From Dehalococcoidia bacterium (GTDB lineage Bacteria; Chloroflexota; Dehalococcoidia; Dehalococcoidales; UBA3254), in contig JANYAV010000010.1 of assembly GCA_025361145.1 (NCBI GenBank), forward strand, positions 1,530 through 65,529: a stretch of 64,000 bases of DNA, written 5' to 3'. The notes beneath the pieces are model-generated. The model made no database searches. It saw only the letters and a list, made by a program, of their open reading frames with translations, and had not been told where the DNA came from. A program made the position numbers and the translations under genes. Each line of letters opens with the position of its first letter. The first letter of the stretch is position 1. Below are positions 28,289 to 50,032 of the stretch, piece by piece.

Positions 28289-28729
28289 ATGTTGATCGCT
28301 GTTGGCTCCGACCATCGAGGAATAGAATTTAAAAAATTTATTATCAATTGTTTGATTGATATGAAACTGGAGTGTAAAGACTTCGGTTCATTCAGCGCTG
28401 AGTCAGTGGATTACCCTGATATTGCCGAGAGCGTAGGAAAAGCCGTGGTAAGCGGTCAGTGTAACTATGGCATTCTGATCTGCGGGACCGGCATCGGCAT
28501 GAGTATGGCAGCTAATAAAGTTAAGGGCATTCGGGCGGCTCTATGTATTGATGATTTTATGGCCGAACGGGCCAGACTACATAATGACGCCAATGTAATT
28601 TGCCTGGGGGCGGAAAGGGGTGAAGCGGGGGTTAAACAGATGCTTAATAAATTATTTTCCACACAATTCGAAGGCGGCCGTCATCAGCACCGTTTGGATA
28701 AAATGGCTAAAATGGAAACTTCCTGTTAG
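28289..28729 (+). CDS. rpiB: Ribose-5-phosphate isomerase B
   Basis: 146 aa with the ICGTGIGMSMAANK motif. Confidence 0.9.
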   Translation: MLIAVGSDHRGIEFKKFIINCLIDMKLECKDFGSFSAESVDYPDIAESVGKAVVSGQCNYGILICGTGIGMSMAANKVKGIRAALCIDDFMAERARLHNDANVICLGAERGEAGVKQMLNKLFSTQFEGGRHQHRLDKMAKMETSC

Positions 28730-28758
28730 TTGACAGGAGATATTCAATATATTAAAAT
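28730..28758 (+). promoter_or_regulatory. Consensus-like promoter TTGACA-17-TAAAAT immediately after the rpiB stop
   Basis: Read directly. Precedes the leader ORF by about 28 nt. Confidence 0.65.
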
Positions 28759-28785
28759 AGCCAGTATATTAGGAATTGTTAGAAT

Positions 28786-28875
28786 ATGAATTTGCAGAAA
28801 TTAAACACCGGCCTGGTACTTATTGTAGTTGTCGCACTACTGTGCGAACGGCCTGGTGTGTCTGCTGAAAATTAA
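28786..28875 (+). CDS. Candidate branched-chain amino acid leader peptide (29 aa)
   Basis: MNLQKLNTGLVLIVVVALLCERPGVSAEN. Nine of the ten consecutive codons at 28813-28842 encode Leu/Val/Ile. Followed by a terminator and the ilv-leu operon. Confidence 0.55.
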   Translation: MNLQKLNTGLVLIVVVALLCERPGVSAEN

Positions 28876-28902
28876 GCCAAAACAACTTTAGATACACATC
28901 AG

Positions 28903-28930
28903 GCCCGGGAAGAAACCCCGGGCTTTTTTA
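28903..28930 (+). terminator. Intrinsic terminator (candidate attenuator) upstream of ilvD
   Basis: Stem GCCCGGG/CCCGGGC, 7-nt loop, then TTTTTTATT. Located 180 nt before the ilvD ATG. Confidence 0.75.
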
Positions 28931-28991
28931 TTGGTAAATTAAATAGTTCGATAAAGAGGGAAAAGGGAGCTTAATTGTATTCTAGCATTGA

Positions 28992-29020
28992 TTGACTTTG
29001 AATCTGGGCTATGCTATGTT
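28992..29020 (+). promoter_or_regulatory. Possible second promoter TTGACT-17-TATGTT between the attenuator and ilvD
   Basis: Hexamer match only. Confidence 0.3.
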
Positions 29021-29111
29021 TTGTTTGAGATTTGATATCAAAATTCCCAAGCTGAGGAAGTCATTATCAAGAATAATACCCGTAATGAAAATACGACAGA
29101 AGGAATAAGTC

Positions 29112-30776
29112 ATGAAAAGCGATGCAATAAAAAAAGGTATTGAGCGGGCGCCGCATAGAGCATTGCTGTATGCTTTGGGCTGTACTAGAAAAGAAATGGA
29201 TAAGCCCTTTATTGGTATTATCAATAGCTACAGTGAGATCGTGCCCGGACATATGCACCTGGATGAGATCTCCAAAGCTGTTAAGGATGGCGTGCGCGCC
29301 GCGGGTGGAGTGCCTTTCGAAGTAAATACCATTGCGGTTTGTGATGGGATAGCCATGAACCATTCTGGCATGAAATATAGTTTACCCAGCCGTGAACTGA
29401 TAGCTGACTCAGTGGAAACAGTGGTTGAGGCGCATGCCTTTGACGCACTGGTTTTTATTCCGAATTGCGATAAAATCATTCCAGGGATGTTGATGGCCTC
29501 TCTCAGATTGAATTTGCCCTCTATCTTTATCAGTGGTGGTCCTATGATGGCGGGGAAGTTAGCTACTGCGGAAGGCAGCAAAATAGTCGACCTGAGTTCT
29601 ACCTTTGAAGCAGTCGGGAAAACTATCTCCGGCAAAATGACTGAAGATGAGCTGGCTGATCTGGAACAGGCTGCCTGTCCCGGCTGCGGTAGCTGCTCAG
29701 GAATGTACACAGCCAATACTATGAATTGTCTTACTGAAGCGGTCGGTATGGGCTTGCCCGGTAACGGTACCATTCCGGCTATTGATATTAGGCGCCGCAG
29801 GCTGGCTAAAGAAGCCGGTCAGCAAATTTTGCAATTACTGGCAGATAATGTGCGCCCTCGCGATATTATCACTTCAAGATCGATACAAAATGCTCTGACC
29901 GTGGATATGGCGCTGGGCGGCAGTACCAATTCCATTTTGCATTTTTCTGCCATCGCTCACGAGGCAGGTCTAGAATTTCCGCTGACTCAGGTCAATGAAA
30001 TCAGCGAAAAGACTCCCTATATCTGTAAACTGAGCCCGGCAGGAACTAATCATATTGAAGACTTGGACCGCGCGGGTGGGGTTCCAGCTATTATGAAACA
30101 GGTCAAGAATTTAATCCATAAAGATACCAAAACGGTTTCTGGTAAAACCACGGGACAGATAATTTCAGCTGCGCGGGTGGTTGATCCGGAGGTGATCCAC
30201 TCGCCTAAAACAGCTTATTCTCAGAAAGGCGGCACCGCTATCTTATTTGGCAATCTGGCGCCCGAAGGGGCAGTCGTCAAGCGGGCTGCTGTAGTACCTG
30301 AAATGATGGTTCATACCGGTCCTGCCCGGGTTTTTGATTCCGAAGAACTGGCGACAAAAGCGATCGTAGCTGGTTCAATTAAGGCAGGAGATGTGGTTGT
30401 GATACGTTATGAAGGACCCAAAGGAGGGCCTGGCATGCGTGAAATGTTGACCCCAACCTCTATGATCGCCGGCATGGGTCTGGATAAGCAGGTTGCCCTG
30501 ATCACGGATGGGCGTTTCTCAGGAGCTACCCGCGGCTCTTCCATCGGACACGTTTCTCCCGAAGCTGCTTCCCGCGGCCCAATCGCTATTGTTAAGGAGG
30601 GAGATATCATTAAAATTGATATTCCCAACTATAAACTTGAAGTCGAATTAAGCGCTAAAGAGATCGCCAAACGCCTGGCCAAATTGCCTGTCTTTGAATC
30701 GAAAATTAAGTCCGGCTATCTCAAACGTTACGTTGATAGAGTGACTTCTGCCAGTACAGGCGCGGTTTTCAAATAG
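29112..30776 (+). CDS. ilvD: Dihydroxy-acid dehydratase
   Basis: 554 aa. CDKIIPGM and [15 protein letters not shown] motifs. Confidence 0.95.
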
Positions 30777-30794
30777 AAGGAGACTAGAATTACC

Positions 30795-32513
30795 ATGAAA
30801 TTAACAGGCGCTCAAATATTATGTGAAAGTTTATTAAAAGAGGGGGTCGACGTTCTGTTCGGCTACCCCGGTGGGGTAGTCCTCCCCCTGTTCGATACTT
30901 TTCCCCAGTATCCGGCCTTACGACATATATTGGTGCGTCATGAGCAGGGAGCTGCTCATGCGGCGGACGGCTATGCCCGCGCTACTGGTAAGGTAGGTGT
31001 CTGTTTGGCTACTTCCGGTCCCGGCGCTACTAATCTGGTTACCGGTATTGCTAACGCGCATCTGGATTCTGTTCCCATGGTGGCTATCACCGGACAGGTA
31101 GCGCGTTCTTTTATTGGTAAAGACGCCTTTCAAGAAGTAGATATCACCGGTATTACCTTGCCTATCACCAAGCACAACTTTCTGGTCATGGAAGCTGGGC
31201 AAATTGCTCAGGCAGTCAAAGAGGCTTTTTATCTAGCCAGGAGTGGACGGCCAGGGCCGGTCTTAATCGACATTCCGAAGGATGTCTTTATTGAGCAGGC
31301 GGAGTTTAATTATCCCGCCAAAGTAAATTTGCCCGGCTATAATCCGACTGTACAGGGCCATCCTGCTCAGATTAAAAAAGCGGCGGAGATGATCAATAAC
31401 GCCTGTCAGAAGCCTTTGATTATCGCTGGCAGAGGCGTGGCTATTTCAGGCGCTTTTAATGAATTGAAACAGTTAGCCGAAACTGCTCATATACCCGTGA
31501 TCACCACGTTGCTGGGTATCGGTTGTTTCCCTGAGTCGCATACTTTAAGCTATGGTATGCTGGGCATGCACGGCACGGCTTATGCTAATTGGGCTGTTAG
31601 CGACGCTGACCTGGTGATCGCGATCGGTATGCGTATGGACGACCGTGCGACTTCCAAGTTCAACGAGTTTGCCCCCGCTGCTCGCATTATACATATAGAC
31701 ATCGATCCCGCTGAAATAGGTAAAAACGTGCGCGTGGATGTCCCGATCGTGGGTGATATTAAAAAGGTCTTGATCCCCCTGATTAAATTGGTTAAGTCCA
31801 ATCAACATGTAGAGTGGATAGCGCAATTAGATGCCTGGCGCAAAAAAGCCCCGATGGTCAGCAGCCGAATAAAGAACTCTAAAGTTTTACTGCCGCAATA
31901 TGTCGTGCATAAGATATATGAAATTACCCGGGGCAATGCCATCGTAGTTGCCGGTGTCGGACAAAATCAAATGTGGGCTGCCCAACATTTCTGGTATGAT
32001 CAACCCAATAGTTTCATAACTTCCGGTGGTTTGGGAACTATGGGTTATGAGTTACCTGCTTCCATGGGGGTTAAGGTGGGTTGTCCGGATGAAACCGTCT
32101 GGTGTATCGCGGGCGATGGCGGTTTTCAGATGACACTGCATGAATTGGCAACGCTGGTGCAGGACAAGATAGGTGTTAAAATCGCTATTTTAAACAACGG
32201 TTGTTTGGGCATGGTCAGACAATGGCAGGAGCTGTTTTATCAAAAAAATTACGTGGATACCCCCCTCTCTTGTCCGGATTTCGTTAAACTGGCCGATGCT
32301 TATGGCATACCCGCTCTGAGGGTCAGTACCAGTCAACAGGTTGTCCCGGCTATTAAAAAAGCCATGGCTACCGACGGTCCTTTCCTGATAGAATTTGTGG
32401 TGGCCCCGGAAGAAAATGTTTATCCGATGGTCCCTCCCGGTGAAGCCCTGTCCAAGGTATTATTAGAACCTGAGAAAGAGGTGCATGTATGGTCTCAACA
32501 AAACACACCCTAG
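30795..32513 (+). CDS. ilvB: Acetolactate synthase large subunit
   Basis: 572 aa. TPP motif GGLGTMGYELPASMG...GDGGFQM. Confidence 0.93.
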   Translation: MKLTGAQILCESLLKEGVDVLFGYPGGVVLPLFDTFPQYPALRHILVRHEQGAAHAADGYARATGKVGVCLATSGPGATNLVTGIANAHLDSVPMVAITGQVARSFIGKDAFQEVDITGITLPITKHNFLVMEAGQIAQAVKEAFYLARSGRPGPVLIDIPKDVFIEQAEFNYPAKVNLPGYNPTVQGHPAQIKKAAEMINNACQKPLIIAGRGVAISGAFNELKQLAETAHIPVITTLLGIGCFPESHTLSYGMLGMHGTAYANWAVSDADLVIAIGMRMDDRATSKFNEFAPAARIIHIDIDPAEIGKNVRVDVPIVGDIKKVLIPLIKLVKSNQHVEWIAQLDAWRKKAPMVSSRIKNSKVLLPQYVVHKIYEITRGNAIVVAGVGQNQMWAAQHFWYDQPNSFITSGGLGTMGYELPASMGVKVGCPDETVWCIAGDGGFQMTLHELATLVQDKIGVKIAILNNGCLGMVRQWQELFYQKNYVDTPLSCPDFVKLADAYGIPALRVSTSQQVVPAIKKAMATDGPFLIEFVVAPEENVYPMVPPGEALSKVLLEPEKEVHVWSQQNTP

Positions 32514-32992
32514 TAGCTCTGGTAGAAGACAAGCCAGGCGTTTTGAATCGCATGGTCAGCCTCTTCAGAAGGCGTAATTTTAATATTGAAAGCATCGCGG
32601 TGGGCAGCAGCGAAATGTCCAATTTCTCGCGCATTACCTTTGTCGTGGACGGTTCTCCTACGATGGTTGAACAGGTCAGGAAACAACTTATGGGAAAGGT
32701 GGTAGAAGTAGTTAAAGTCACTGATATTACCGATAAAAATATTGTAATCCGTGAGCTGGCTTTGATCAAAATCAAAGCTCCTTCCTCTGCGCGCAGCGAG
32801 ATCATCCAAATTGTGGATATCTTTCACGCTGAGATTGTGGATGTGACCCAGGAGTATTTGACTATCGAGATCACCGGGCCGGAAGATAAAATAGAATCTC
32901 TTCTTGATCTTCTTAAACCTTTTGGGATCAAGGAACTAGCGCGCACCGGCCGCATTGCTATGACCTGCGGTACCCTGGTTGATGAAGAATAA
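32489..32992 (+). CDS. ilvN: Acetolactate synthase small (regulatory) subunit
   Basis: 167 aa. ACT domain LVALVEDKPGVLNRMVSLFRRRNFNIESI. Confidence 0.9.
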   Translation: MVSTKHTLVALVEDKPGVLNRMVSLFRRRNFNIESIAVGSSEMSNFSRITFVVDGSPTMVEQVRKQLMGKVVEVVKVTDITDKNIVIRELALIKIKAPSSARSEIIQIVDIFHAEIVDVTQEYLTIEITGPEDKIESLLDLLKPFGIKELARTGRIAMTCGTLVDEE

Positions 32993-33005
32993 CAAAGGAA
33001 CGAAC

Positions 33006-34529
33006 ATGAAAAATAGAGTAATTGTATTTGATACGACCTTAAGAGATGGAGAGCAAGCCGCCGGAGGCACTCTCAACATTCAGGAAAAACTGGAGATTGC
33101 CAGGCAGCTGGAAAAGCTCAAAGTGGATGTTATCGAAGCCGGCTTTCCCATCAGTTCCCCGGGTGATTTCGAATCGGTCAAACTGATCTCTAAAGAAGTA
33201 CGGAACGCTTCAATTTGCGGTTTGTCTCATGCCAACCCCGCTGCTATAGAGCGTGCCTGGGAAGCTGTCAAAGGCGCCGCCCAGCCTCGTATCCATATCT
33301 TTCTTTCTTCATCAGAGATTCACCTTTTGCATCAACTTAAAAAAAGCCATGACGAGATTTTACAGGCATCCCGTGAAATGGTGGCTAAGGCCAAAAAATA
33401 CACCAGCGAGATTGAATTTTCGCCGATGGACGCCAGCCGGACCAATCCTGAATTCTTGTATCAGATAGTTGAGGCTGTCATTGCCGCTGGTGCGACCACC
33501 GTCAATATACCGGATACGGTGGGTTATGCCATTCCTCAGGAATGGGGCAAGCGTATTGCAGGCATTTTTAAAAATGTCTCTAATATCGATAAAGCAGTTA
33601 TCAGTGTGCATTGTCATAATGACTTGGGGCTGGCCGTTGCCAATAGCCTGGAAGCCGTCAGGCAGGGCGCTCGGCAGGTGGAATGCACTGTTAATGGTAT
33701 TGGAGAACGGGCTGGTAATGCCTCGTTGGAAGAGATTGTGATGGCTATCCGCACCCGCCAGGATTTTTATAAATTGACCACGGGGATTGATACTACTCAA
33801 ATATATAGCACCAGTCGTCTGGTTAGCGAGTTGACTGGGTTCACCGTTCAACCCAATAAGGCCATCGTGGGAGCTAATGCTTTTCGGCATCAGTCCGGTA
33901 TTCACCAGGACGGCGTAATTAAGTTGCCCATTACCTATGAAATAATGGATCCCAAAGATGTCGGTATATCTGCCAGTAGCCTGGTTTTGGGCAAGCTTAG
34001 TGGACACCATGCCTTTAAGGAGAGATTGGCCGAGTTGGGTTATCATTTGGATGAGGATGACCTCAGCAGATCCTTTCAGGCTTTCAAAGAGCTGGCTGAA
34101 AAAAAGAAAGAAATCACCGATAAAGACATCGAGTCCGTGGTAGCTCAGCAAAAACGAACCGTCGCTGAATTATATTCTTTGCAGATGGTTCAGGTATCCT
34201 GTGGGAACGGCATGCCTACTGCTGCCGTCAGGTTGACTGGACCCAAAGGTGAGACCCTTGCTGATGCGTCGTTGGGCACCGGTCCGGTCGATGCAGTTTA
34301 TAAGGCTATTAACCGTATTGTAGGTGTCTCCAACAAGTTGACCGAGTTCACAGTTAAGTCGGTTACCGAGGGTATAGACGCTCAGGGAGAGGTTTTAATC
34401 AGGGTTGAGAGTGATGGAGTCACTTATACCGGCCGCGGCGCGGATACCGACATAATCGTAGCCAGCGCTAAGGCTTACATGAATGCCTTGAATCGTCTGC
34501 TGTCTGTTAAAAAAGCAGTTAAGAAATAA
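33006..34529 (+). CDS. leuA: 2-isopropylmalate synthase
   Basis: ATG at 33006 ([17 protein letters not shown]). [12 protein letters not shown] motif and a C-terminal LeuA dimerisation-type domain. Confidence 0.9.
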
Positions 34530-34551
34530 TCAATATCGAGGGGATGTTGGA

Positions 34552-34953
34552 ATGTCACCGGATTTAACCATGGCTATTCGGCTGCTGTTAGCCGCCGTTC
34601 TGGGTGGAGCGATTGGATTTCAGCGCGAAAACGCCGGCAAACCAGCCGGTTTGCGCACTCATATGCTGATTTGTATCGGCGCTGCCCTGTTCACTCTGGT
34701 GGGTATTTTTGCCTTTAGTGGCACTGTCGATCCTGGGCGCATGGCTGCTGGTGTGGTATCCGGTATCGGTTTTCTTGGCGCGGGGGCTATCATCTTCCGC
34801 TCCAGTGATGGTTATATTGCCGGCTTGACTACGGCAGCCACAATGTGGGCGGTGGCCGGTATCGGAGTTGCTGTGGGCTCTGGGTTCTATATAGCTTCGG
34901 CTGTCGCAACCGCGATTATTTTGATTATTTTGTTCATACCTCATATCAAGTAA
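34552..34953 (+). CDS. MgtC/SapB family membrane protein
   Basis: 133 aa, 4-5 TM, N-terminal ...GGAIGFQRE... typical of MgtC-family proteins. Confidence 0.8.
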   Translation: MSPDLTMAIRLLLAAVLGGAIGFQRENAGKPAGLRTHMLICIGAALFTLVGIFAFSGTVDPGRMAAGVVSGIGFLGAGAIIFRSSDGYIAGLTTAATMWAVAGIGVAVGSGFYIASAVATAIILIILFIPHIK

Positions 34954-34987
34954 TTAAATAAAGCAATACTAGAAAAGGTGAAAGAAA

Positions 34988-36238
34988 ATGATGACATTAG
35001 CCGAAAAAATATTAGCTGCTCATTCCGGCAAGAAAAAAGTAATCGCCGGAGAGTTTATTAACTGTAAAGTTGACCTGGTTATGGCCAATGATGTTACTGC
35101 GCCCATCGCCATAAACGAGTTCCGTAAGCTGGGAGTGAAGGTTTTTAATCCTAAGAAGATCGTCTTTGTGCCTGACCATTTCACTCCTAATAAGGACATC
35201 AACTCAGCCGAGCAGGTTAAGATGATCCGTGAGTTTGCCCGCGAAACAGGTGTTGGTTTTTTTGAGATGGGCAGGGTAGGTATCGAACATGTACTGCTGC
35301 CGGATAAAGGTATTGTCTTACCCGGCGATGTTGTTATCGGTGCCGATTCTCATACCTGTACTTACGGTGCGATTGGGGCCTTCTCCACCGGTATGGGGTC
35401 TACCGATATTGGCTCCGCTATGGCTACCGGTGATATCTGGATGAAAGTTCCGCACACCATAAAATTTGTCTTCCGCGGCAAATTAAATAAATGGGTCAGT
35501 GGCAAGGATTTAATTCTGTATACTATTGGTCAGATTGGTGTAGACGGCGCTTTATATGCCTCGATGGAGTTCGCCGGTGAGGCCATCGAAAATTTGTCTA
35601 TGAGCGGGCGTTTCACCATTGCCAATATGGCGATTGAGGCCGGGGCTAAAGCCGGTTTGTTTAAGGTTGATAAAAAGACCCTGGAGTACCTGGCGCCTAG
35701 AGCGAAACGTAAATTTAAAGTTTATGAGCCGGACGCTGACGCAGAATATTCTCAAATCTTTGAATGGGATGCCTCGAAGATCGAACCTATGGTGGCCTTC
35801 CCTCATTTACCTTCTAATACTAAACCGATCAGTAAAGTGGGCGAGGTTAGAATCGATCAGTCGGTCATCGGTAGTTGTACTAACGGCCGTTTGGAAGACC
35901 TGCAGATCGCCGCTAAGATCTTCAAGGGCAAAAAGGTTCACCCTGAAGTTCGTTGTATCATATTACCCGGCACCCAGGAAATTTACCTGGAGGCCATGAA
36001 ACTGGGTCTGGTAGAGACCTTTGTCAAAGCAGGGGCCGTATTTAGCACTCCCACTTGTGGTCCCTGCCTGGGAGGGCATATGGGTATTCTTGCTAAGGGA
36101 GAGAGAGCTATCTCAACCACTAACCGCAATTTTGTGGGCAGAATGGGTAGTCCTAAATCTGAAGTTTATCTGGCTAATCCGGCTATCGCAGCGGCCAGTG
36201 CTATCGCCGGCAGAATTATCTCGCCGGAGGACCTGTAA
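34988..36238 (+). CDS. leuC: 3-isopropylmalate dehydratase large subunit (short, archaeal/HacA-like type)
   Basis: 416 aa. [16 protein letters not shown] and TCGPCLG cluster ligands. Confidence 0.92.
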
Positions 36239-36359
36239 AGGATTTCCCTCCCTTTTTCAATTTCCTCTTTCCTGCGGTCGTAGATCTCCCGATTCTATCG
36301 GGGGAGAGAGGATCAAAGATGAGGGGCAAGAATAACCACGGGAATATAAGGAATCAGAT

Positions 36360-36842
36360 ATGACTAAGATGAAAAAGTCCTGGGTGGCAAGGCTGCAAGA
36401 TAGTAAGGGCTATCCTAAGGTGGAACCTATCAGCGAGAGAATGAGTGCCCGCTGGGGGACAGGGACGATGGTGATTCCAGCTCCCATGGACGTAGATACC
36501 TTCATGAAAATGGTGCCTGCAGGGAAATTAACCACTATCGACGAAATTCGGCAGGCTCTCGCTATAAAATATGGCGCCACCATCGGTTGTCCGACCAATA
36601 CCGTAATTTTTAGCGGGATTGCTGCCCATGCTGCGGATGAATTGGCTTGCGCTGGTGAGAAGGATATCACCCCTTACTGGCGCACCCTGGGCAATGATGG
36701 AACTCTAAATCATAAATACCCGGGGGGAGTGCAAAAACAAGCAACCCGTTTAAAAGAAGAAGGTCATACTGTTTTGTTTTTTAAAGGCAATAAGCTGCCT
36801 AAAGTTCAGGATTATGAAAAAAAATTAGCCAAATTAATATAA
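36360..36842 (+). CDS. MGMT-family / alkyltransferase-like (ATL) DNA-binding protein without the catalytic Cys
   Basis: 160 aa. VPAGKLTTIDEIRQALA and TPYWRTLGNDGTL align with the MGMT HTH and PCHRV region, but the Cys is replaced by Tyr (PYWR). Confidence 0.6.
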   Translation: MTKMKKSWVARLQDSKGYPKVEPISERMSARWGTGTMVIPAPMDVDTFMKMVPAGKLTTIDEIRQALAIKYGATIGCPTNTVIFSGIAAHAADELACAGEKDITPYWRTLGNDGTLNHKYPGGVQKQATRLKEEGHTVLFFKGNKLPKVQDYEKKLAKLI

Positions 36843-36929
36843 CCTCAAATTTTTAATGATAATCGAGGTATATTAAGTTCGACAGATTCCATAACTCAAG
36901 ATAAATTTTACCTTGATCAGGAGAATTAA

Positions 36930-37421
36930 ATGAAATTAAAAGGGCAAGTTCATAAATATGGTGCAAATGTTGATACGGATGTCATCATCCCAGCCCGCTA
37001 TTTAAATGTTTCGGATCCTCTGGAACTGGCCAAACACTGCATGGAGGATATCGATGCCCAGTTCGTGAAGAAGATGAAACCAGGCGACATAATTGTGGCT
37101 GATACCAACTTTGGCTGCGGTTCGTCTCGTGAGCATGCTCCCCTGTCTATCAAATCGGCCGGGGTTTCCTGCGTGATCGCCAAGACCTTCGCCCGCATTT
37201 TCTTCCGTAACGCTATTAATATCGGTCTGCCTTTGCTGGAGTGCGTTGAGTGTGTCGAAAAAACTAAAAACGGGGATACTTTGGAAGTTGACCTCGCCGC
37301 TGGCAAAATCTTAAATTTGTCCACGGGTCTGGTCTTTACCGCTAAACCCTACCCTGATTTCATGTCTGAACTGATTAAGGCTGGCGGTTTGATCAATTAT
37401 ACGAAAAAAAGATTAGCGTAA
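36930..37421 (+). CDS. leuD: 3-isopropylmalate dehydratase small subunit
   Basis: 163 aa with the GCGSSREHA motif. Confidence 0.92.
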
Positions 37422-37435
37422 AGGAGAAAGCTAAA

Positions 37436-38536
37436 TTGAAATTTAAACTAGCAGTTCTACCTGGTGACGGCGTTGGGCCTGAGCTGATGAATGAGGAAGT
37501 CAAGGTTCTGGAAGCCCTAGGAAAGCGTTTTGGGCATAGTTTCGACCTCAAATACGGCTTAATCGGTGGAATTGCAATTGATAAAGAAGGTACGGCGCTC
37601 TCAGAAGATACCCTGGAAATGTGCCGTCAATCCGATGCGGTCGTTATGATTGCTGTCGGCGGTCCTAAATGGGATAACCCCAAGGCTAAGGTCAGGCCAG
37701 AAGACGGTTTATTAGCCCTGCGTAAGGGTTTGGCCCTTTTTGCTAATATCCGCCCCGTCTTTACCAATGACATCATGGTGGATGCTACTCCCTTAAAAGC
37801 GGATATTGTAAAAGGTACGGATTTGATCGTGGTTCGCGAACTGACCGGAGGGTTGTATTTTGGCAGGCCTAAGAGACAATGGACTACCACCCGCGGTCGT
37901 AGAGCAGTTGATACGATGTCCTATTCCGAGCAGGAAATCGAACGCATTGTCCGCGTAGGATTTGAACTGGCCCGTAAACGCCGTAAAAAACTCACTTCCG
38001 TGGATAAAGCTAATGTGCTTCAATCTTCCCGTTTATGGCGGCAGGTTACCAGTGAAGTGGCTAAAGATTATCCGGATATTGCTCTGGATAATATGTTGGT
38101 AGATACTTGCGCTATGCGTTTAATACAGAAACCCACTTATTTCGATGTAATTGTCACGGAAAATACCTTTGGTGATATCTTAACTGATGAAGCCTCGCTG
38201 CTGGCTGGTTCGATGGGTATGTTGCCCTCTGCTAGTCTGGCTGGTGTTCCACAGGAAGGCAAAAAGATATTAGGTTTCTATGAGCCTATTCATGGCAGCG
38301 CTCCTGATATTGCCGGACAAAATAAGGCTAATCCGATTGCCAGTATTCTCAGTTTGGCCATGATGTGCCGCTATTCTCTGGGCTTGTCCCCTGAAGCTCA
38401 AGCTCTGGAAGAAATTATCGCGGCCGTTCTGAAAGAGGGTTACCGCACACCGGATATCATGAGTGAAGGCAAAAAAATGGTGGGGACTAAAGAAATGGGC
38501 GACGTGGTAGCTAAAAAAATCGCTAAATATACGTAG
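37436..38536 (+). CDS. leuB: 3-isopropylmalate dehydrogenase
   Basis: 366 aa. TTG start after AAAGGAGAAAG. NTFGDILTDEAS motif. Confidence 0.92.
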   Translation: MKFKLAVLPGDGVGPELMNEEVKVLEALGKRFGHSFDLKYGLIGGIAIDKEGTALSEDTLEMCRQSDAVVMIAVGGPKWDNPKAKVRPEDGLLALRKGLALFANIRPVFTNDIMVDATPLKADIVKGTDLIVVRELTGGLYFGRPKRQWTTTRGRRAVDTMSYSEQEIERIVRVGFELARKRRKKLTSVDKANVLQSSRLWRQVTSEVAKDYPDIALDNMLVDTCAMRLIQKPTYFDVIVTENTFGDILTDEASLLAGSMGMLPSASLAGVPQEGKKILGFYEPIHGSAPDIAGQNKANPIASILSLAMMCRYSLGLSPEAQALEEIIAAVLKEGYRTPDIMSEGKKMVGTKEMGDVVAKKIAKYT

Positions 38537-38581
38537 TTTTAATCATTTGAATTTGTAATTTGGGATTTACATCAGGACATT

Positions 38582-40165
<1,584 letters not shown>

Positions 40166-49523: not shown

Positions 49524-49599
49524 TTTTATTTATGATTCTTCCTTTAATTATTTTAATGGTCCACCGATTTATTTAGGCAGAATCATACTCATGTATCCA

Positions 49600-49740
49600 T
49601 TCCTCTTCTCCTTTCCAAGGTTGGGAAACAGTGCCGTTTCCAGCGCTGCCGTCGATCCCTCCGATGACTCGGGGGGATACCGGCTGTTCACCCTGTCCCC
49701 AGAAAATCGGGAGTTAGGTCAGACAGCTTTAGAGAGTCCT
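49600..49740 (-). promoter_or_regulatory. Structured leader copy 1 (candidate Moco/Tuco riboswitch) upstream of modA
   Basis: The minus strand ends ...CCCCCGAGUCAUCGGAGGG...GGAAAC-loop-GUUUCC...GGAAAGGAGAAG. Shares long conserved blocks with copy 2. Confidence 0.5.
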
Positions 49741-49787
49741 TTCACAACTAGTTGGATTTACTTTTATAATTGGGTGATCAAACGAGT

Positions 49788-49830
49788 TAAAAACAAAATA
49801 GCGCTTCTCCACTAAGGAGCGCGCGCTATT
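49788..49830 (-). terminator. Intrinsic terminator between the two leader copies
   Basis: Minus strand AATAGCGC(gcg)CTCC-ttagt-GGAG(aa)GCGCTATT followed by TTGTTTTT. Confidence 0.75.
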
Positions 49831-49849
49831 GTTTTACATAAATAGACCA

Positions 49850-50020
49850 TTCTTCTCCTTTCCAAATGGGAAACAGCGCCGTTTCCAGCTCTGCCGTCGA
49901 TCCGATTTACCTTAAAGGGTTTGGGCGAAGCCCATAAGAATAGCGGGAGACCCTTCATGGTGCCGGATACCGGCTGCCGACCTTGTTCATTTCGAAGTTA
50001 GGCCCAGCAGCTCAAGAGAT
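49850..50020 (-). promoter_or_regulatory. Structured leader copy 2 (candidate Moco/Tuco riboswitch, with an extra inserted hairpin)
   Basis: Same conserved blocks as copy 1 (CAGCCGGUAUCC; AUCGACGGCAGnGCUGGAAACGGCnCUGUUUCCCA; GGAAAGGAGAAGA). The short CCGAG hairpin of copy 1 is replaced by a longer hairpin, which adds about 45 nt. Confidence 0.5.
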
Positions 50021-50032
50021 TTATCTTCTTTT

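What the first reader, a model, noticed from the sequence alone, without database searches (positions are those of the whole stretch)
28730..28930. Leu/Val/Ile-rich leader peptide with alternative hairpins and a terminator upstream of the ilv-leu-cimA operon
A near-consensus promoter (TTGACA-17-TAAAAT, 28730-28758) starts right after the rpiB stop. It drives a 29-codon ORF (28786-28875, MNLQKLNTGLVLIVVVALLCERPGVSAEN). Nine of the ten consecutive codons at 28813-28842 encode Leu, Val or Ile. Three mutually exclusive pairings can be drawn by hand. First, CACCGGCC (28806-28813) pairs with GGCCTGGTG (28850-28858) and encloses the regulatory codons. Second, CCTGGTGTGT (28852-28861) pairs with ACACATCAGG (28894-28903), giving 10 bp with one G-U. 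Third, the terminator GCCCGGG/CCCGGGC plus a U-run lies at 28903-28930. The downstream operon makes exactly these three amino acids: ilvD, ilvBN, leuA, leuCD, leuB, and cimA for Ile via citramalate. This is the classical ribosome-mediated attenuation layout. It is mainly documented in Proteobacteria and Actinobacteria, so it would be notable in this lineage. There are two caveats. Hairpin 2:3 overlaps the terminator 5' arm by only 1-3 nt. A possible second promoter (28992-29020) lies between the terminator and ilvD.
Basis: partly seen in the sequence, partly recalled or inferred. Interest (0 to 1): 0.65.

Follow-up and report, generated by a model that had tools for sequence, protein, structure and literature searches.

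The report
Branched-chain leader-peptide attenuator before ilvD
A 29-codon mini-gene rich in leucine, valine and isoleucine codons, followed by a transcription stop signal that can be switched off by alternative RNA folding, sits in front of the branched-chain amino-acid operon of an uncultured Dehalococcoidales bacterium; the mechanism is classical, but it is apparently undescribed in this phylum and belongs to a multi-copy family of such switches.

Summary
The 2:3 helix is longer than drawn: 12 bp, overlapping the terminator stem by 5 nt.

The element is conserved in 9 of 10 genomes of the window's family, always between rpiB and the ilv operon. All nine leader peptides keep a Leu/Ile/Val run. 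Both the terminated fold (1:2 plus 3:4) and the antiterminator (2:3) hold up across relatives with compensatory changes.

It matches no Rfam family. It is one copy of a lineage-specific RNA scaffold found in 103 of 363 genomes of the order, with up to 10 copies per genome. In other copies the codon run matches the downstream gene:
- Val run before valS
- His run before a hisS/hisZ-like gene
- Met-Met-Met before a homocysteine-synthesis gene
- Thr/Lys run before asd

That correspondence is the signature of ribosome-mediated attenuation.

Caveats:
- A second promoter (P2), conserved in relatives, lies between the terminator and ilvD. The attenuator therefore gates only transcription from the first promoter (P1).
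- In this genome the antiterminator covers only the base of the terminator stem.

Verdict: a real attenuator, most likely responsive to branched-chain amino acids. It is a new member of a known kind, in a phylum where I found no report of this mechanism.

The parts
28730..28758 (+). Promoter P1: TTGACA, 17-nt spacer, TAAAAT. It abuts the rpiB stop codon.
   Evidence: 11 of 12 consensus positions. A TTGACA with a 17-18 nt spacer and a TAnAAT-like -10 box is present upstream of every family copy.
28771..28774 (+). Shine-Dalgarno-like AGGA, 11 nt before the leader ATG. The spacing is rather long.
   Evidence: Read from the sequence. The ATG is invariant in the alignments. SD spacing in relatives is also long, so translation initiation is inferred, not shown.
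28786..28875 (+). Leader peptide ORF, 29 codons: MNLQKLNTGLVLIVVVALLCERPGVSAEN.
   Evidence: Orthologous ORFs are present in 9 family genomes.
28813..28842 (+). Regulatory codon run LVLIVVVALL: 9 of 10 codons are Leu/Val/Ile.
   Evidence: All nine orthologues have 7-9 of 10. A 9-of-10 window occurs in 6 of 7059 small ORFs of the genome.
28805..28813 (+). Segment 1 (ACACCGGCC), the 5' strand of the 1:2 anti-antiterminator. It lies directly upstream of, and overlaps, the first regulatory codon.
   Evidence: Helix 1:2 is 88% paired across 11 sequences, and 3 pairs show changes on both sides.
28832..28847 (+). Inner hairpin UCGCAC-UACU-GUGCGA inside the 1:2 loop. It may stabilise the fold or act as a pause element.
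   Evidence: It is 93% paired, with one C-G to U-A compensatory change.
28850..28861 (+). Segment 2 (GGCCUGGUGUGU). It pairs either with segment 1 or with segment 3.
28894..28905 (+). Segment 3 (ACACAUCAGGCC), the 3' strand of the 12-bp 2:3 antiterminator. Its last 5 nt are the base of the terminator 5' arm.
   Evidence: 9-12 of 12 pairs kept in all 11 sequences, gaps excepted. (92% paired against 20-46% when slid). (30 sequences: 8 of 13 pairs with changes on both sides; 0 of 500 shuffles reach the observed score).
28901..28930 (+). Intrinsic terminator: a 9-bp stem (AGGCCCGGG / CCCGGGCUU), a 7-nt loop and a U-run.
   Evidence: (-17.3 kcal/mol). (98.5% paired in 30 sequences, 5 pairs with changes on both sides).
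28992..29020 (+). Second promoter P2: TTGACT, 17-nt spacer, TG-n-TATGTT (extended -10). It lies between the terminator and ilvD.
   Evidence: The -35 box, the spacing and the TGn-TAT..T box are conserved in all family members and in a genome of another family that lacks the leader.
29112..40165 (+). Regulated operon: ilvD, ilvB, ilvN, leuA, MgtC-family ORF, leuC, 160-aa ORF, leuD, leuB, cimA.
   Evidence: The next gene (rtcB family) is on the opposite strand.

Best explanation
The element is a ribosome-mediated (leader-peptide) transcription attenuator that makes transcription from promoter P1 into the ilvD-ilvBN-leuA-leuCD-leuB-cimA operon depend on the supply of charged Leu, Val and Ile tRNAs.

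Proposed working:
1. P1 starts an RNA at about 28765, and the 29-codon leader is translated.
2. When branched-chain amino acids are plentiful, the ribosome runs to the stop codon at 28873. There it occludes the 3' part of segment 2, or segment 1 re-pairs with segment 2 behind it. Segment 3 stays free, the 9-bp terminator forms, and the transcript ends at about 28930.
3. When any of the three amino acids is short, the ribosome stalls on the first five to seven codons of the run (28813 to about 28833) and covers segment 1. Segment 2 then pairs with segment 3 over 12 bp and sequesters the five bases at the foot of the terminator stem. RNA polymerase reads on through P2 into ilvD.
4. With no translation at all, 1:2 and 3:4 form and transcription terminates.
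5. P2 supplies a second input that this attenuator does not control.

What is shown: the sequence features, their conservation, the compensatory changes in all three helices, and the match between codon run and downstream gene in paralogous copies. What is inferred: translation of the leader, where the ribosome stalls, the actual termination and read-through, and the relative strengths of P1 and P2.
For: Anatomy and energies: 1:2 plus inner hairpin -21.8 kcal/mol, terminator -17.3, 2:3 -19.0.

Conservation: covariance model R1 finds the element in 9 of 10 family genomes, always between rpiB and the ilv operon. In one genome ilvB follows instead of ilvD.

Leader peptides: all keep a Leu/Ile/Val run, with synonymous or Leu/Ile/Val-interchanging substitutions.

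Terminated fold: 94% of cells paired, 11 cells with changes on both sides against 4.4 in shuffles, 0 of 500 shuffles as high. RNAalifold predicts the same fold independently.

Antiterminator: 2:3 was not part of the search model, yet 92% of cells are paired against 20-46% when slid. On a structure-blind MAFFT alignment of 30 scaffold members, 8 of 13 pairs have changes on both sides and 0 of 500 shuffles reach the observed score. The alignment columns shared by 2:3 and 3:4 covary with both partners. In relatives the antiterminator covers 7-11 nt of the terminator arm.

RNA-level conservation: the reading frame over segment 2 differs between copies (RPGVS versus RAWRVS) while the nucleotides are conserved, so the constraint there acts on the RNA.

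Codon run matches gene in paralogous copies:
- VVVVV before valS
- H-rich runs before a hisS/hisZ-like gene
- MMM before the homocysteine-synthesis gene, in 8 of 9 further loci fetched (the other reads MIM) and in the first one seen
- TLTTTYTK before asd

Against: A conserved promoter (P2) lies between the terminator and ilvD. ilvD can therefore be transcribed without passing the attenuator, and in relatives a further hairpin with a U-run follows P2.

In this genome 2:3 overlaps only 5 nt of the terminator arm. Equilibrium folding with a masked ribosome footprint often lets a 9-bp 2:3 helix coexist with the 7-bp G-C core of the terminator, so antitermination must rely on kinetics.

The Shine-Dalgarno-like AGGA sits 11 nt from the ATG, and further away in several relatives.

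Other members of the same scaffold precede genes unrelated to amino acids: an ABC-F protein, MFS and ABC transporters, a GNAT acetyltransferase and methyltransferases. The scaffold as such is therefore not specific to amino-acid sensing.

Confidence: 0.78

Rival explanations
1. The unit is a stand-alone small gene. P1, the 29-codon ORF and the terminator make a short hydrophobic peptide (a membrane micro-protein or a toxin-like peptide) that has nothing to do with ilv regulation, and ilvD is transcribed only from P2.
For: The unit has its own near-consensus promoter and a strong terminator. P2 is conserved downstream. The peptide core LxLIVxVALxC is fairly conserved within the family.
Against: The hydrophobic stretch is only about 12 residues, too short to span a membrane. 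Outside the run, conservation follows RNA pairing rather than the reading frame: compensatory changes alter the amino acids, and one family member reads segment 2 in another frame. The alternative helix 2:3 covaries, which a peptide gene does not need. Paralogous copies carry Val, His or Met runs matched to the downstream gene. Linkage to the ilv operon is strict.
Confidence: 0.06
2. It is a leader-peptide attenuator that reports general translation status or drug-induced ribosome stalling rather than Leu/Val/Ile supply specifically. This would resemble the leaders of ABC-F and erm-type resistance genes.
For: Members of the same scaffold precede an ABC-F ribosome-protection-like gene, drrA-type ABC and MFS transporters, a GNAT acetyltransferase and methyltransferases.
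Against: The copy in the window, and all eight orthologues, sit before branched-chain biosynthesis genes and keep a Leu/Ile/Val run. Copies before valS, the hisS/hisZ-like gene, the homocysteine-synthesis gene and asd carry the matching codon runs. This argues that the codon run sets the specificity.
Confidence: 0.09
3. In this genome the element acts mainly as an insulator or is a relic. The terminator stops transcription coming from rpiB and P1, the antiterminator is too weak to matter, and regulation of ilvD rests on P2 alone.
For: The window's 2:3 helix overlaps the terminator by only 5 nt. Equilibrium folds allow both helices to form together. P2 is present.
Against: The 5 sequestered bases are the foot of the stem next to the U-run, which must pair for hairpin-driven termination (established knowledge of intrinsic terminators; the B. 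subtilis trp leader works with a 4-nt overlap, recalled from memory). The ORF, the codon run and all helices are intact and nearly identical in the same-genus genome. That is not what a decaying relic looks like.
Confidence: 0.05

Closest known systems
Escherichia coli ilvGMEDA leader (ilvL) and ilvBN leader (ivbL): multivalent attenuation by Leu, Val and Ile
   Same: A short leader peptide of about 30 codons carries mixed runs of Leu, Val and Ile codons. It is followed by alternative helices and an intrinsic terminator in front of branched-chain biosynthesis genes. One sensor serves three amino acids. (From my own knowledge of the E. coli system.)
   Different: There is no sequence or Rfam relationship. 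The phylum is different (Chloroflexota). A conserved second promoter lies between the terminator and the first gene. The operon combines ilv, leu and cimA. The RNA belongs to a multi-copy lineage-specific scaffold.
E. coli trp operon attenuator (Rfam Trp_leader RF00513)
   Same: The logic of four segments is the same: 1:2 anti-antiterminator, 2:3 antiterminator, 3:4 terminator, with the regulatory codons at segment 1.
   Different: The element scores only 21 bits against RF00513, whose gathering score is 41, so it is not a member. The shared part of segment 3 is only 5 nt here. An extra inner hairpin sits within the 1:2 loop.
Leader-peptide attenuators of ilv/leu operons in Gram-positive bacteria: Staphylococcus aureus ilv-leu (PMC5794164), Listeria Rli60 (PMC5864092), Corynebacterium ilvBNC uORF / ilvB-II motif (PMC10272879), and Actinobacteria in general (PMC1262725)
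   Same: A Leu- or Ile/Val-rich upstream ORF governs termination before branched-chain biosynthesis genes outside Proteobacteria. These systems also combine the attenuator with further promoter-level control.
   Different: The sequences and structures are unrelated, and none of these papers was found to cover Chloroflexota. I took only titles and abstracts from them.
Leaderless mini-ORF attenuator of ilvD in other Dehalococcoidia: P2-type promoter, about 12-17 codons such as MNEQNVTLVLIVMKQSP, a GUGGG box, then the terminator GCCGUCC...GGGACGGC
   Same: Same gene, same order of bacteria and the same presumed signal. The window's P2 promoter is the promoter of that module (earlier scan note e1-2374410).
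   Different: It is a non-homologous design. The window's leader is a separate cassette with its own promoter, placed upstream of P2. In the window's P2 region, neither the mini-ORF nor the second terminator is present.
T-box leaders (the usual RNA control of ilv-leu and aminoacyl-tRNA synthetase genes in Firmicutes; reported upstream of ileS and trp genes in Dehalococcoides, PMC2494555)
   Same: T-boxes also form a paralogous RNA family. It spread to many amino-acid and tRNA-synthetase genes and is re-targeted by changing a codon. The regulated genes overlap with those here (valS, hisS-like, ilv).
   Different: T-boxes bind uncharged tRNA directly and need no translation. No T-box was detected here. 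In the present family the re-targeting is by a run of codons in a translated ORF.

Membership tests
Classical ribosome-mediated (leader-peptide) transcription attenuator | A short ORF with a start codon and a ribosome-binding site lies close to the promoter. | tested here: met
   The ORF is 28786-28875 and starts 28 nt after the -10 box. The ATG is invariant in 11 aligned sequences. An SD-like AGGA lies 11 nt upstream, a long spacing. Translation itself was not shown.
Classical ribosome-mediated (leader-peptide) transcription attenuator | The ORF carries a run of codons for the amino acid or acids made by the downstream operon. | tested here: met
   The window has 9 of 10 Leu/Val/Ile codons, and all nine orthologues have 7-9 of 10. 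The operon encodes ilvD, ilvBN, leuABCD and cimA.
Classical ribosome-mediated (leader-peptide) transcription attenuator | An intrinsic terminator lies between the leader ORF and the first structural gene. | tested here: met
   A 9-bp stem plus a U-run at 28901-28930. The stem is 98.5% paired in 30 relatives.
Classical ribosome-mediated (leader-peptide) transcription attenuator | An antiterminator helix excludes the terminator and is conserved. | tested here: met
   A 12-bp 2:3 helix shares 5 nt with the terminator arm here and 7-11 nt in relatives. It shows covariation. Equilibrium folding in the window allows partial coexistence of the two helices, so exclusion is partial.
Classical ribosome-mediated (leader-peptide) transcription attenuator | An anti-antiterminator (1:2) is placed so that a ribosome stalled on the regulatory codons masks its 5' strand. 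| tested here: met
   Segment 1 (28805-13) ends in the first regulatory codon. The helix is conserved, and 3 pairs have changes on both sides. The footprint geometry is inferred.
Classical ribosome-mediated (leader-peptide) transcription attenuator | A short terminated transcript exists in vivo, and read-through rises on starvation for the cognate amino acids. | not testable with these tools
Classical ribosome-mediated (leader-peptide) transcription attenuator | The attenuator is the only route of transcription into the operon, with no promoter between terminator and first gene. This is typical but not strictly defining. | tested here: not met
   Conserved promoter P2 lies at 28992-29020.
Rfam leader families (Trp_leader RF00513, and by the same scan every other family of Rfam 15, including the curated amino-acid operon leaders) | The score reaches the family's gathering threshold. 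| tested here: not met
   No family reaches its threshold in the window at this locus. The best sub-threshold match is Trp_leader at 21 bits against 41. Six related loci gave no match at E up to 0.1.
T-box leader | T-box covariance-model match (specifier loop and antiterminator bulge). | tested here: not met
   Neither Rfam scan of the region found a T-box match.
Dehalococcoidales 'GCCCRGG' attenuator scaffold (defined here by models R1 and R2) | Segment 2 (GGGCUUGGYGUGU-like), a complementary segment 3 that runs into a GCCCRGG...CCYGGGC terminator with a U-run, and a leader ORF that spans segment 2. | tested here: met
   The window scores 84.8 bits (E = 6e-24) with R2, though it is one of the 30 sequences that model was built from. 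The same model finds matches in 103 of 363 genomes of the order.

The most novel reading that the evidence does not exclude
The ilv leader is one copy of a lineage-specific attenuator cassette that has duplicated: promoter, translated leader, a three-helix switch and a GCCCRGG terminator. The cassette has spread within five families of Dehalococcoidales to at least a dozen kinds of gene, with up to 10 copies per genome.

It would be re-targeted simply by changing the codon run in the leader:
- Leu/Ile/Val for ilv
- Val for valS
- His for a hisS/hisZ-like gene
- Met for homocysteine synthesis
- Thr/Lys for asd

That would make it a translated counterpart of the T-box family. The same switch also sits before ABC-F, MFS, ABC, GNAT and methyltransferase genes, where it may sense drug-induced or other ribosome stalling.
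Probability: 0.6. Interest if true: 0.75.

Novelty: new member of a known kind. Interest (0 to 1): 0.58.

Why it matters
Ribosome-mediated attenuation is a textbook mechanism, documented mainly in Proteobacteria, Actinobacteria and some Firmicutes. This finding gives a well-supported case in Chloroflexota (uncultured Dehalococcoidales), and it matches no curated RNA family.

It implies that transcription and translation are coupled closely enough in these slow-growing anaerobes for a ribosome to steer RNA folding. It also shows that these small genomes regulate branched-chain synthesis through tRNA charging.

The wider observation may matter more. One RNA scaffold is reused before biosynthetic genes, tRNA-synthetase genes and resistance-like genes, with the codon run matched to the gene. 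That offers a natural set of re-targeted attenuators. It could be added to RNA family libraries, would improve annotation of metagenome-assembled genomes, and gives a compact set of switches to test in reporters.

Tried and rejected
1. Known RNA families. Rfam scans of the window at gathering threshold, of the region at E up to 10, and of six related loci gave nothing usable. The element is not a known family and not a T-box.

2. A second leader ORF starting at the ATG inside P2. One relative would read MFCVRLDIIIIRGKPSF. I rejected this because the ATG lies inside the -10 hexamer and is replaced by TATTTT in three relatives, whereas the -35 box, the spacing and the TGn motif are conserved. 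The region is a promoter.

3. The leader upstream of ilvD elsewhere. Model R1 found no match in 63 other ilvD loci from Dehalococcoidia, Firmicutes and others. The cassette is confined to particular families.

4. More copies in the window's own genome. A pattern scan for GCCCRGG-type terminators gave 10 hits. Apart from the ilv leader, the three with the strongest upstream pairing, which I inspected, lie inside coding sequence. Model R2 finds exactly one copy in this genome.

5. Ribosome-masking model. Equilibrium folding with a 30-nt masked footprint was ambiguous: a 9-bp 2:3 helix and a 7-bp terminator core can coexist. I report this as a weakness.

6. Full-length general model. I used the shorter alignment A4 instead.

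8. Literature. Searches for leader-peptide attenuation in Chloroflexi or Dehalococcoidia found no description. The held library is incomplete, so absence there is not proof.
Full report
**Observation**

- rpiB ends at 28729.
- TTGACA (28730-35), a 17-nt spacer and TAAAAT (28753-58) follow at once.
- An AGGA lies at 28771-74.
- The ORF 28786-28875 encodes MNLQKLNTGLVLIVVVALLCERPGVSAEN.
- Codons 10-19 (28813-42) read LVLIVVVALL.

The minimum-free-energy fold of 28765-28935 contains three helices:
- ACACC-GGCC (28805-13) paired with GGCC-U-GGUGU (28850-59);
- an inner hairpin at 28832-47;
- a 9-bp terminator, AGGCCCGGG (28901-09) with CCCGGGCUU (28917-25), followed by six U.

No shuffle of 200 folds as well (z = -2.6).

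GGCCUGGUGUGU (28850-61) pairs with ACACAUCAGGCC (28894-28905) over 12 bp. It therefore shares 5 nt with the terminator 5' arm.

A 9-of-10 Leu/Ile/Val window is rare. It occurs in 6 of 7059 small ORFs in the six frames of this genome.

The operon downstream is ilvD, ilvB, ilvN, leuA, an MgtC-family ORF, leuC, a 160-aa ORF, leuD, leuB and cimA. The next gene, of the rtcB family, is on the other strand.

**Lineage**

The window lies in a 1.7-Mb, 25-contig metagenome-assembled genome. The nearest named ilvD loci are Dehalococcoidales or Dehalococcoidia MAGs at 74% identity or less. The order as sampled includes single-contig genomes of 1.4-2.1 Mb, which I take to be the cultured dehalogenating genera. 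This fits Dehalococcoidales, phylum Chloroflexota.

**Conservation in the family**

A DNA search found the region in relatives. I built a covariance model from four copies (R1). It found the element in 9 of 10 genomes of the window's family, and the one without it is 61% complete.

In every case the order is rpiB, a TTGACA-type promoter, the leader ORF, the terminator, a second promoter, then ilvD. In one genome ilvB follows instead.

The leader peptides are:
- MNMYSQKFNTGLVLIVNVALVCARPGVSAQI
- MNLITGLSLIVVVALVCNRPGVSAIHD
- MNPNSWNTELVLIVIGALTCGGFGVSQIYK
- MKPDNRNTRLALIVIVALTCDGFGVCPVR
- MKVKIWNLRLSLIVIVALACGGFGVSPKNS
- ...MTYQNQNTSLNIIVLVALLCQGLDVSLD
- MVITVSNTSLVVTVLIALHCGGLGVLSCRR
- MFWMNWNANLVLVLIAPEVQRAWRVSGSK

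Each has 7-9 Leu/Ile/Val in ten codons. Differences within the run are mostly third-position changes or Leu/Ile/Val interchanges.

Outside the run, conservation follows the RNA.
- GGCC/GGCC in the window becomes GAAC/GUUU or AGAC/GUUU in other genera. This changes the amino acids but keeps the pairs.
- One member reads segment 2 in a different frame.

**Structure tests**

On the 11-sequence alignment:
- The terminated form (1:2, inner hairpin, 3:4) has 94% of cells paired, five pairs with changes on both sides, and no shuffle of 500 as high.
- RNAalifold predicts the same fold on its own.
- The 2:3 helix was not in the model, so the alignment is not fitted to it. It has 92% of cells paired, against 20-46% when the partner is slid by one to three columns.

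On a structure-blind MAFFT alignment of 30 members of the wider scaffold (A4):
- 2:3 has 8 of 13 pairs with changes on both sides. That is 21 such cells against 8.3 ± 2.2 in shuffles, and 0 of 500 shuffles reach it.
- The terminator has 5 of 9 such pairs.
- Alignment columns 99-104 belong to both helices and covary with both partners. This is what a switch requires.

**Energetics and geometry**

- 1:2 plus the inner hairpin: -21.8 kcal/mol.
- Terminator: -17.3 kcal/mol.
- 2:3: -19.0 kcal/mol.
- The full terminated fold (-48.2) and a fold forced to contain 2:3 (-45.0) are close, so the RNA is poised between the two.

Segment 1 ends in the first regulatory codon. A ribosome with its A site on roughly the first five to seven codons of the run would cover segment 1 and leave segment 2 free. 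A ribosome at the stop codon (28873) would cover the 3' part of segment 2.

There is one weakness. With a 30-nt footprint masked, equilibrium folding often lets a shortened 9-bp 2:3 helix coexist with the 7-bp G-C core of the terminator. The five shared bases are the foot of the stem next to the U-run. That is the part that must close for termination, so antitermination is plausible, but here it depends on kinetics. In relatives the antiterminator covers 7-11 nt of the arm.

**The second promoter**

TTGACT, a 17-nt spacer and TGc-TATGTT (28992-29020) are conserved in -35 box, spacing and extended -10 box, but not in the spacer sequence. This holds in all family members and in a genome of another family that lacks the leader cassette.

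I considered that an ATG inside it starts a second leader ORF and rejected the idea, because three relatives have TATTTT there.

The attenuator therefore gates P1-derived transcription only.

In six of the nine family members, P2 is followed by a further conserved hairpin with a U-run (AUAAGGGGUAGACCGUCCUUUAGGGGCGUUUAUUUUU), and a seventh carries a more divergent hairpin in the same place. The window and two relatives lack it.

The same promoter-plus-terminator module lies before ilvD in many other Dehalococcoidales. In five loci it contains a leaderless mini-ORF rich in branched-chain codons (MNEQNVTLVLIVMKQSP, MNTQNVMLVLVVMKQSP, MNSYNLVLALIVISGYQ, MNCNYVILVLVTDT, MNIELVILVIHT).

The window thus carries a second, non-homologous solution placed upstream of the older module.

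**A wider family**

R1 also hit weaker copies in three other families. They share these features:
- segment 2 (GGGCUUGGYGUGU);
- a complementary segment 3 that runs into a GCCCRGG...CCYGGGC terminator;
- a TTGACA promoter;
- a leader ORF that spans segment 2.

Model R2, built on 2:3, found matches at E up to 1e-5 in 103 of 363 genomes of the order. They fall in five families plus two weak singletons, with up to 10 copies per genome. An even sample of 401 genomes of the class gave three genomes with strong matches, among them the window's own. The window's genome has exactly one copy.

The codon run follows the downstream gene:
- SVVVVVT and DLVVVVS before valS;
- IIHHHAHHTNHH, VIHHAHV and IIHHHAHH before a hisS/hisZ-family gene;
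- TLTTTYTKNDTKK before asd;
- MMM before the homocysteine-synthesis enzyme (Pfam HcyBio), in 8 of 9 further loci fetched (the other reads MIM) and in the first one seen;
- Ala-rich leaders before a class I/II aminotransferase.

Other copies precede an ABC-F ribosome-protection-like gene, drrA-type ABC and MFS transporters, a GNAT acetyltransferase and SAM methyltransferases. The match between codon run and gene in several independent classes is the strongest computational evidence that translation of the leader sets the switch.

**Comparison with known systems**

In working principle the element is a classical attenuator. It is closest to the multivalent E. coli ilvGMEDA and ilvBN leaders, and to the ilv/leu leaders of S. 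aureus, Listeria and Corynebacterium (PMC5794164, PMC5864092, PMC10272879, PMC1262725; titles and abstracts only).

It belongs to no Rfam family and is not a T-box. T-boxes are the RNA control reported for ileS and trp genes of Dehalococcoides (PMC2494555).

Literature searches found no description of leader-peptide attenuation in Chloroflexi or Dehalococcoidia. The held library is incomplete, so this does not prove that none exists.

**Limits**

The following are inferred, not shown:
- translation of the leader;
- the stalling positions;
- actual termination and read-through;
- the balance between P1 and P2.

**Verdict**

The element is a new member of a known kind in a phylum where I found no report of this mechanism. 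It carries extra interest as one copy of a re-targeted, multi-copy attenuator scaffold.

Noticed in passing
Related loci L017-L037, L120, L128-L131, L147-L168 (genomes of the same order): A multi-copy family of leader-peptide attenuators shares one RNA scaffold. It occurs in 103 of 363 genomes of the order, with up to 10 copies per genome. Copies lie before valS (Val runs), a hisS/hisZ-like gene (His runs), a homocysteine-synthesis gene (Met-Met-Met in 8 of 9 further loci fetched, Met-Ile-Met in the other, and in the first one seen), asd (Thr/Lys) and an aminotransferase (Ala-rich). Copies also lie before ABC-F, ABC, MFS, GNAT and methyltransferase genes.
   Followed up: partly
L009, L010, L012, L014, L015, L016 downstream of P2, and L005. 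The module is absent from window 29021-29111.: A conserved hairpin with a U-run (AUAAGGGGUAGACCGUCCUUUAGGGGCGUUUAUUUUU) lies between P2 and ilvD in most relatives. An upstream G-rich box could pair with the terminator's 5' arm. The module has no ORF and no Rfam match, so it is a second attenuator with an unknown signal. It has been lost in the window's genome.
   Followed up: partly
L039, L049, L053, L056, L059 (other Dehalococcoidales), upstream of ilvD: A different attenuator with no sequence similarity lies directly before ilvD. A P2-type promoter is followed by a leaderless mini-ORF of 12-17 codons rich in Val/Leu/Ile, then the terminator GCCGUCC...GGGACGGC.
   Followed up: partly
window 49592-50030, minus strand: Two tandem molybdenum-cofactor riboswitch aptamers (Rfam RF01055; 49.2 and 40.2 bits, both above the gathering score).
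   Followed up: no
window 34552-34953 and 36360-36842, plus strand: Two ORFs unrelated to the pathway are embedded in the leu part of the operon. One is a 133-aa MgtC-family protein between leuA and leuC. The other is a 160-aa ORF between leuC and leuD, with only a weak methylguanine-methyltransferase DNA-binding-domain match (E = 8.5e-4, below threshold). No ilvC is present in this operon.
   Followed up: no
window 28721-28738: A 6-bp inverted repeat (TCCTGT-TAGTTG-ACAGGA) spans the rpiB stop codon and the -35 box of P1. It is not conserved in the same-genus genome, so it is probably fortuitous.
   Followed up: partly
L015 (genome G007): In one family member the leader and P2 are followed, after about 450 nt, by ilvB rather than ilvD. 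The link between the leader and the ilv operon survives this rearrangement.
   Followed up: no
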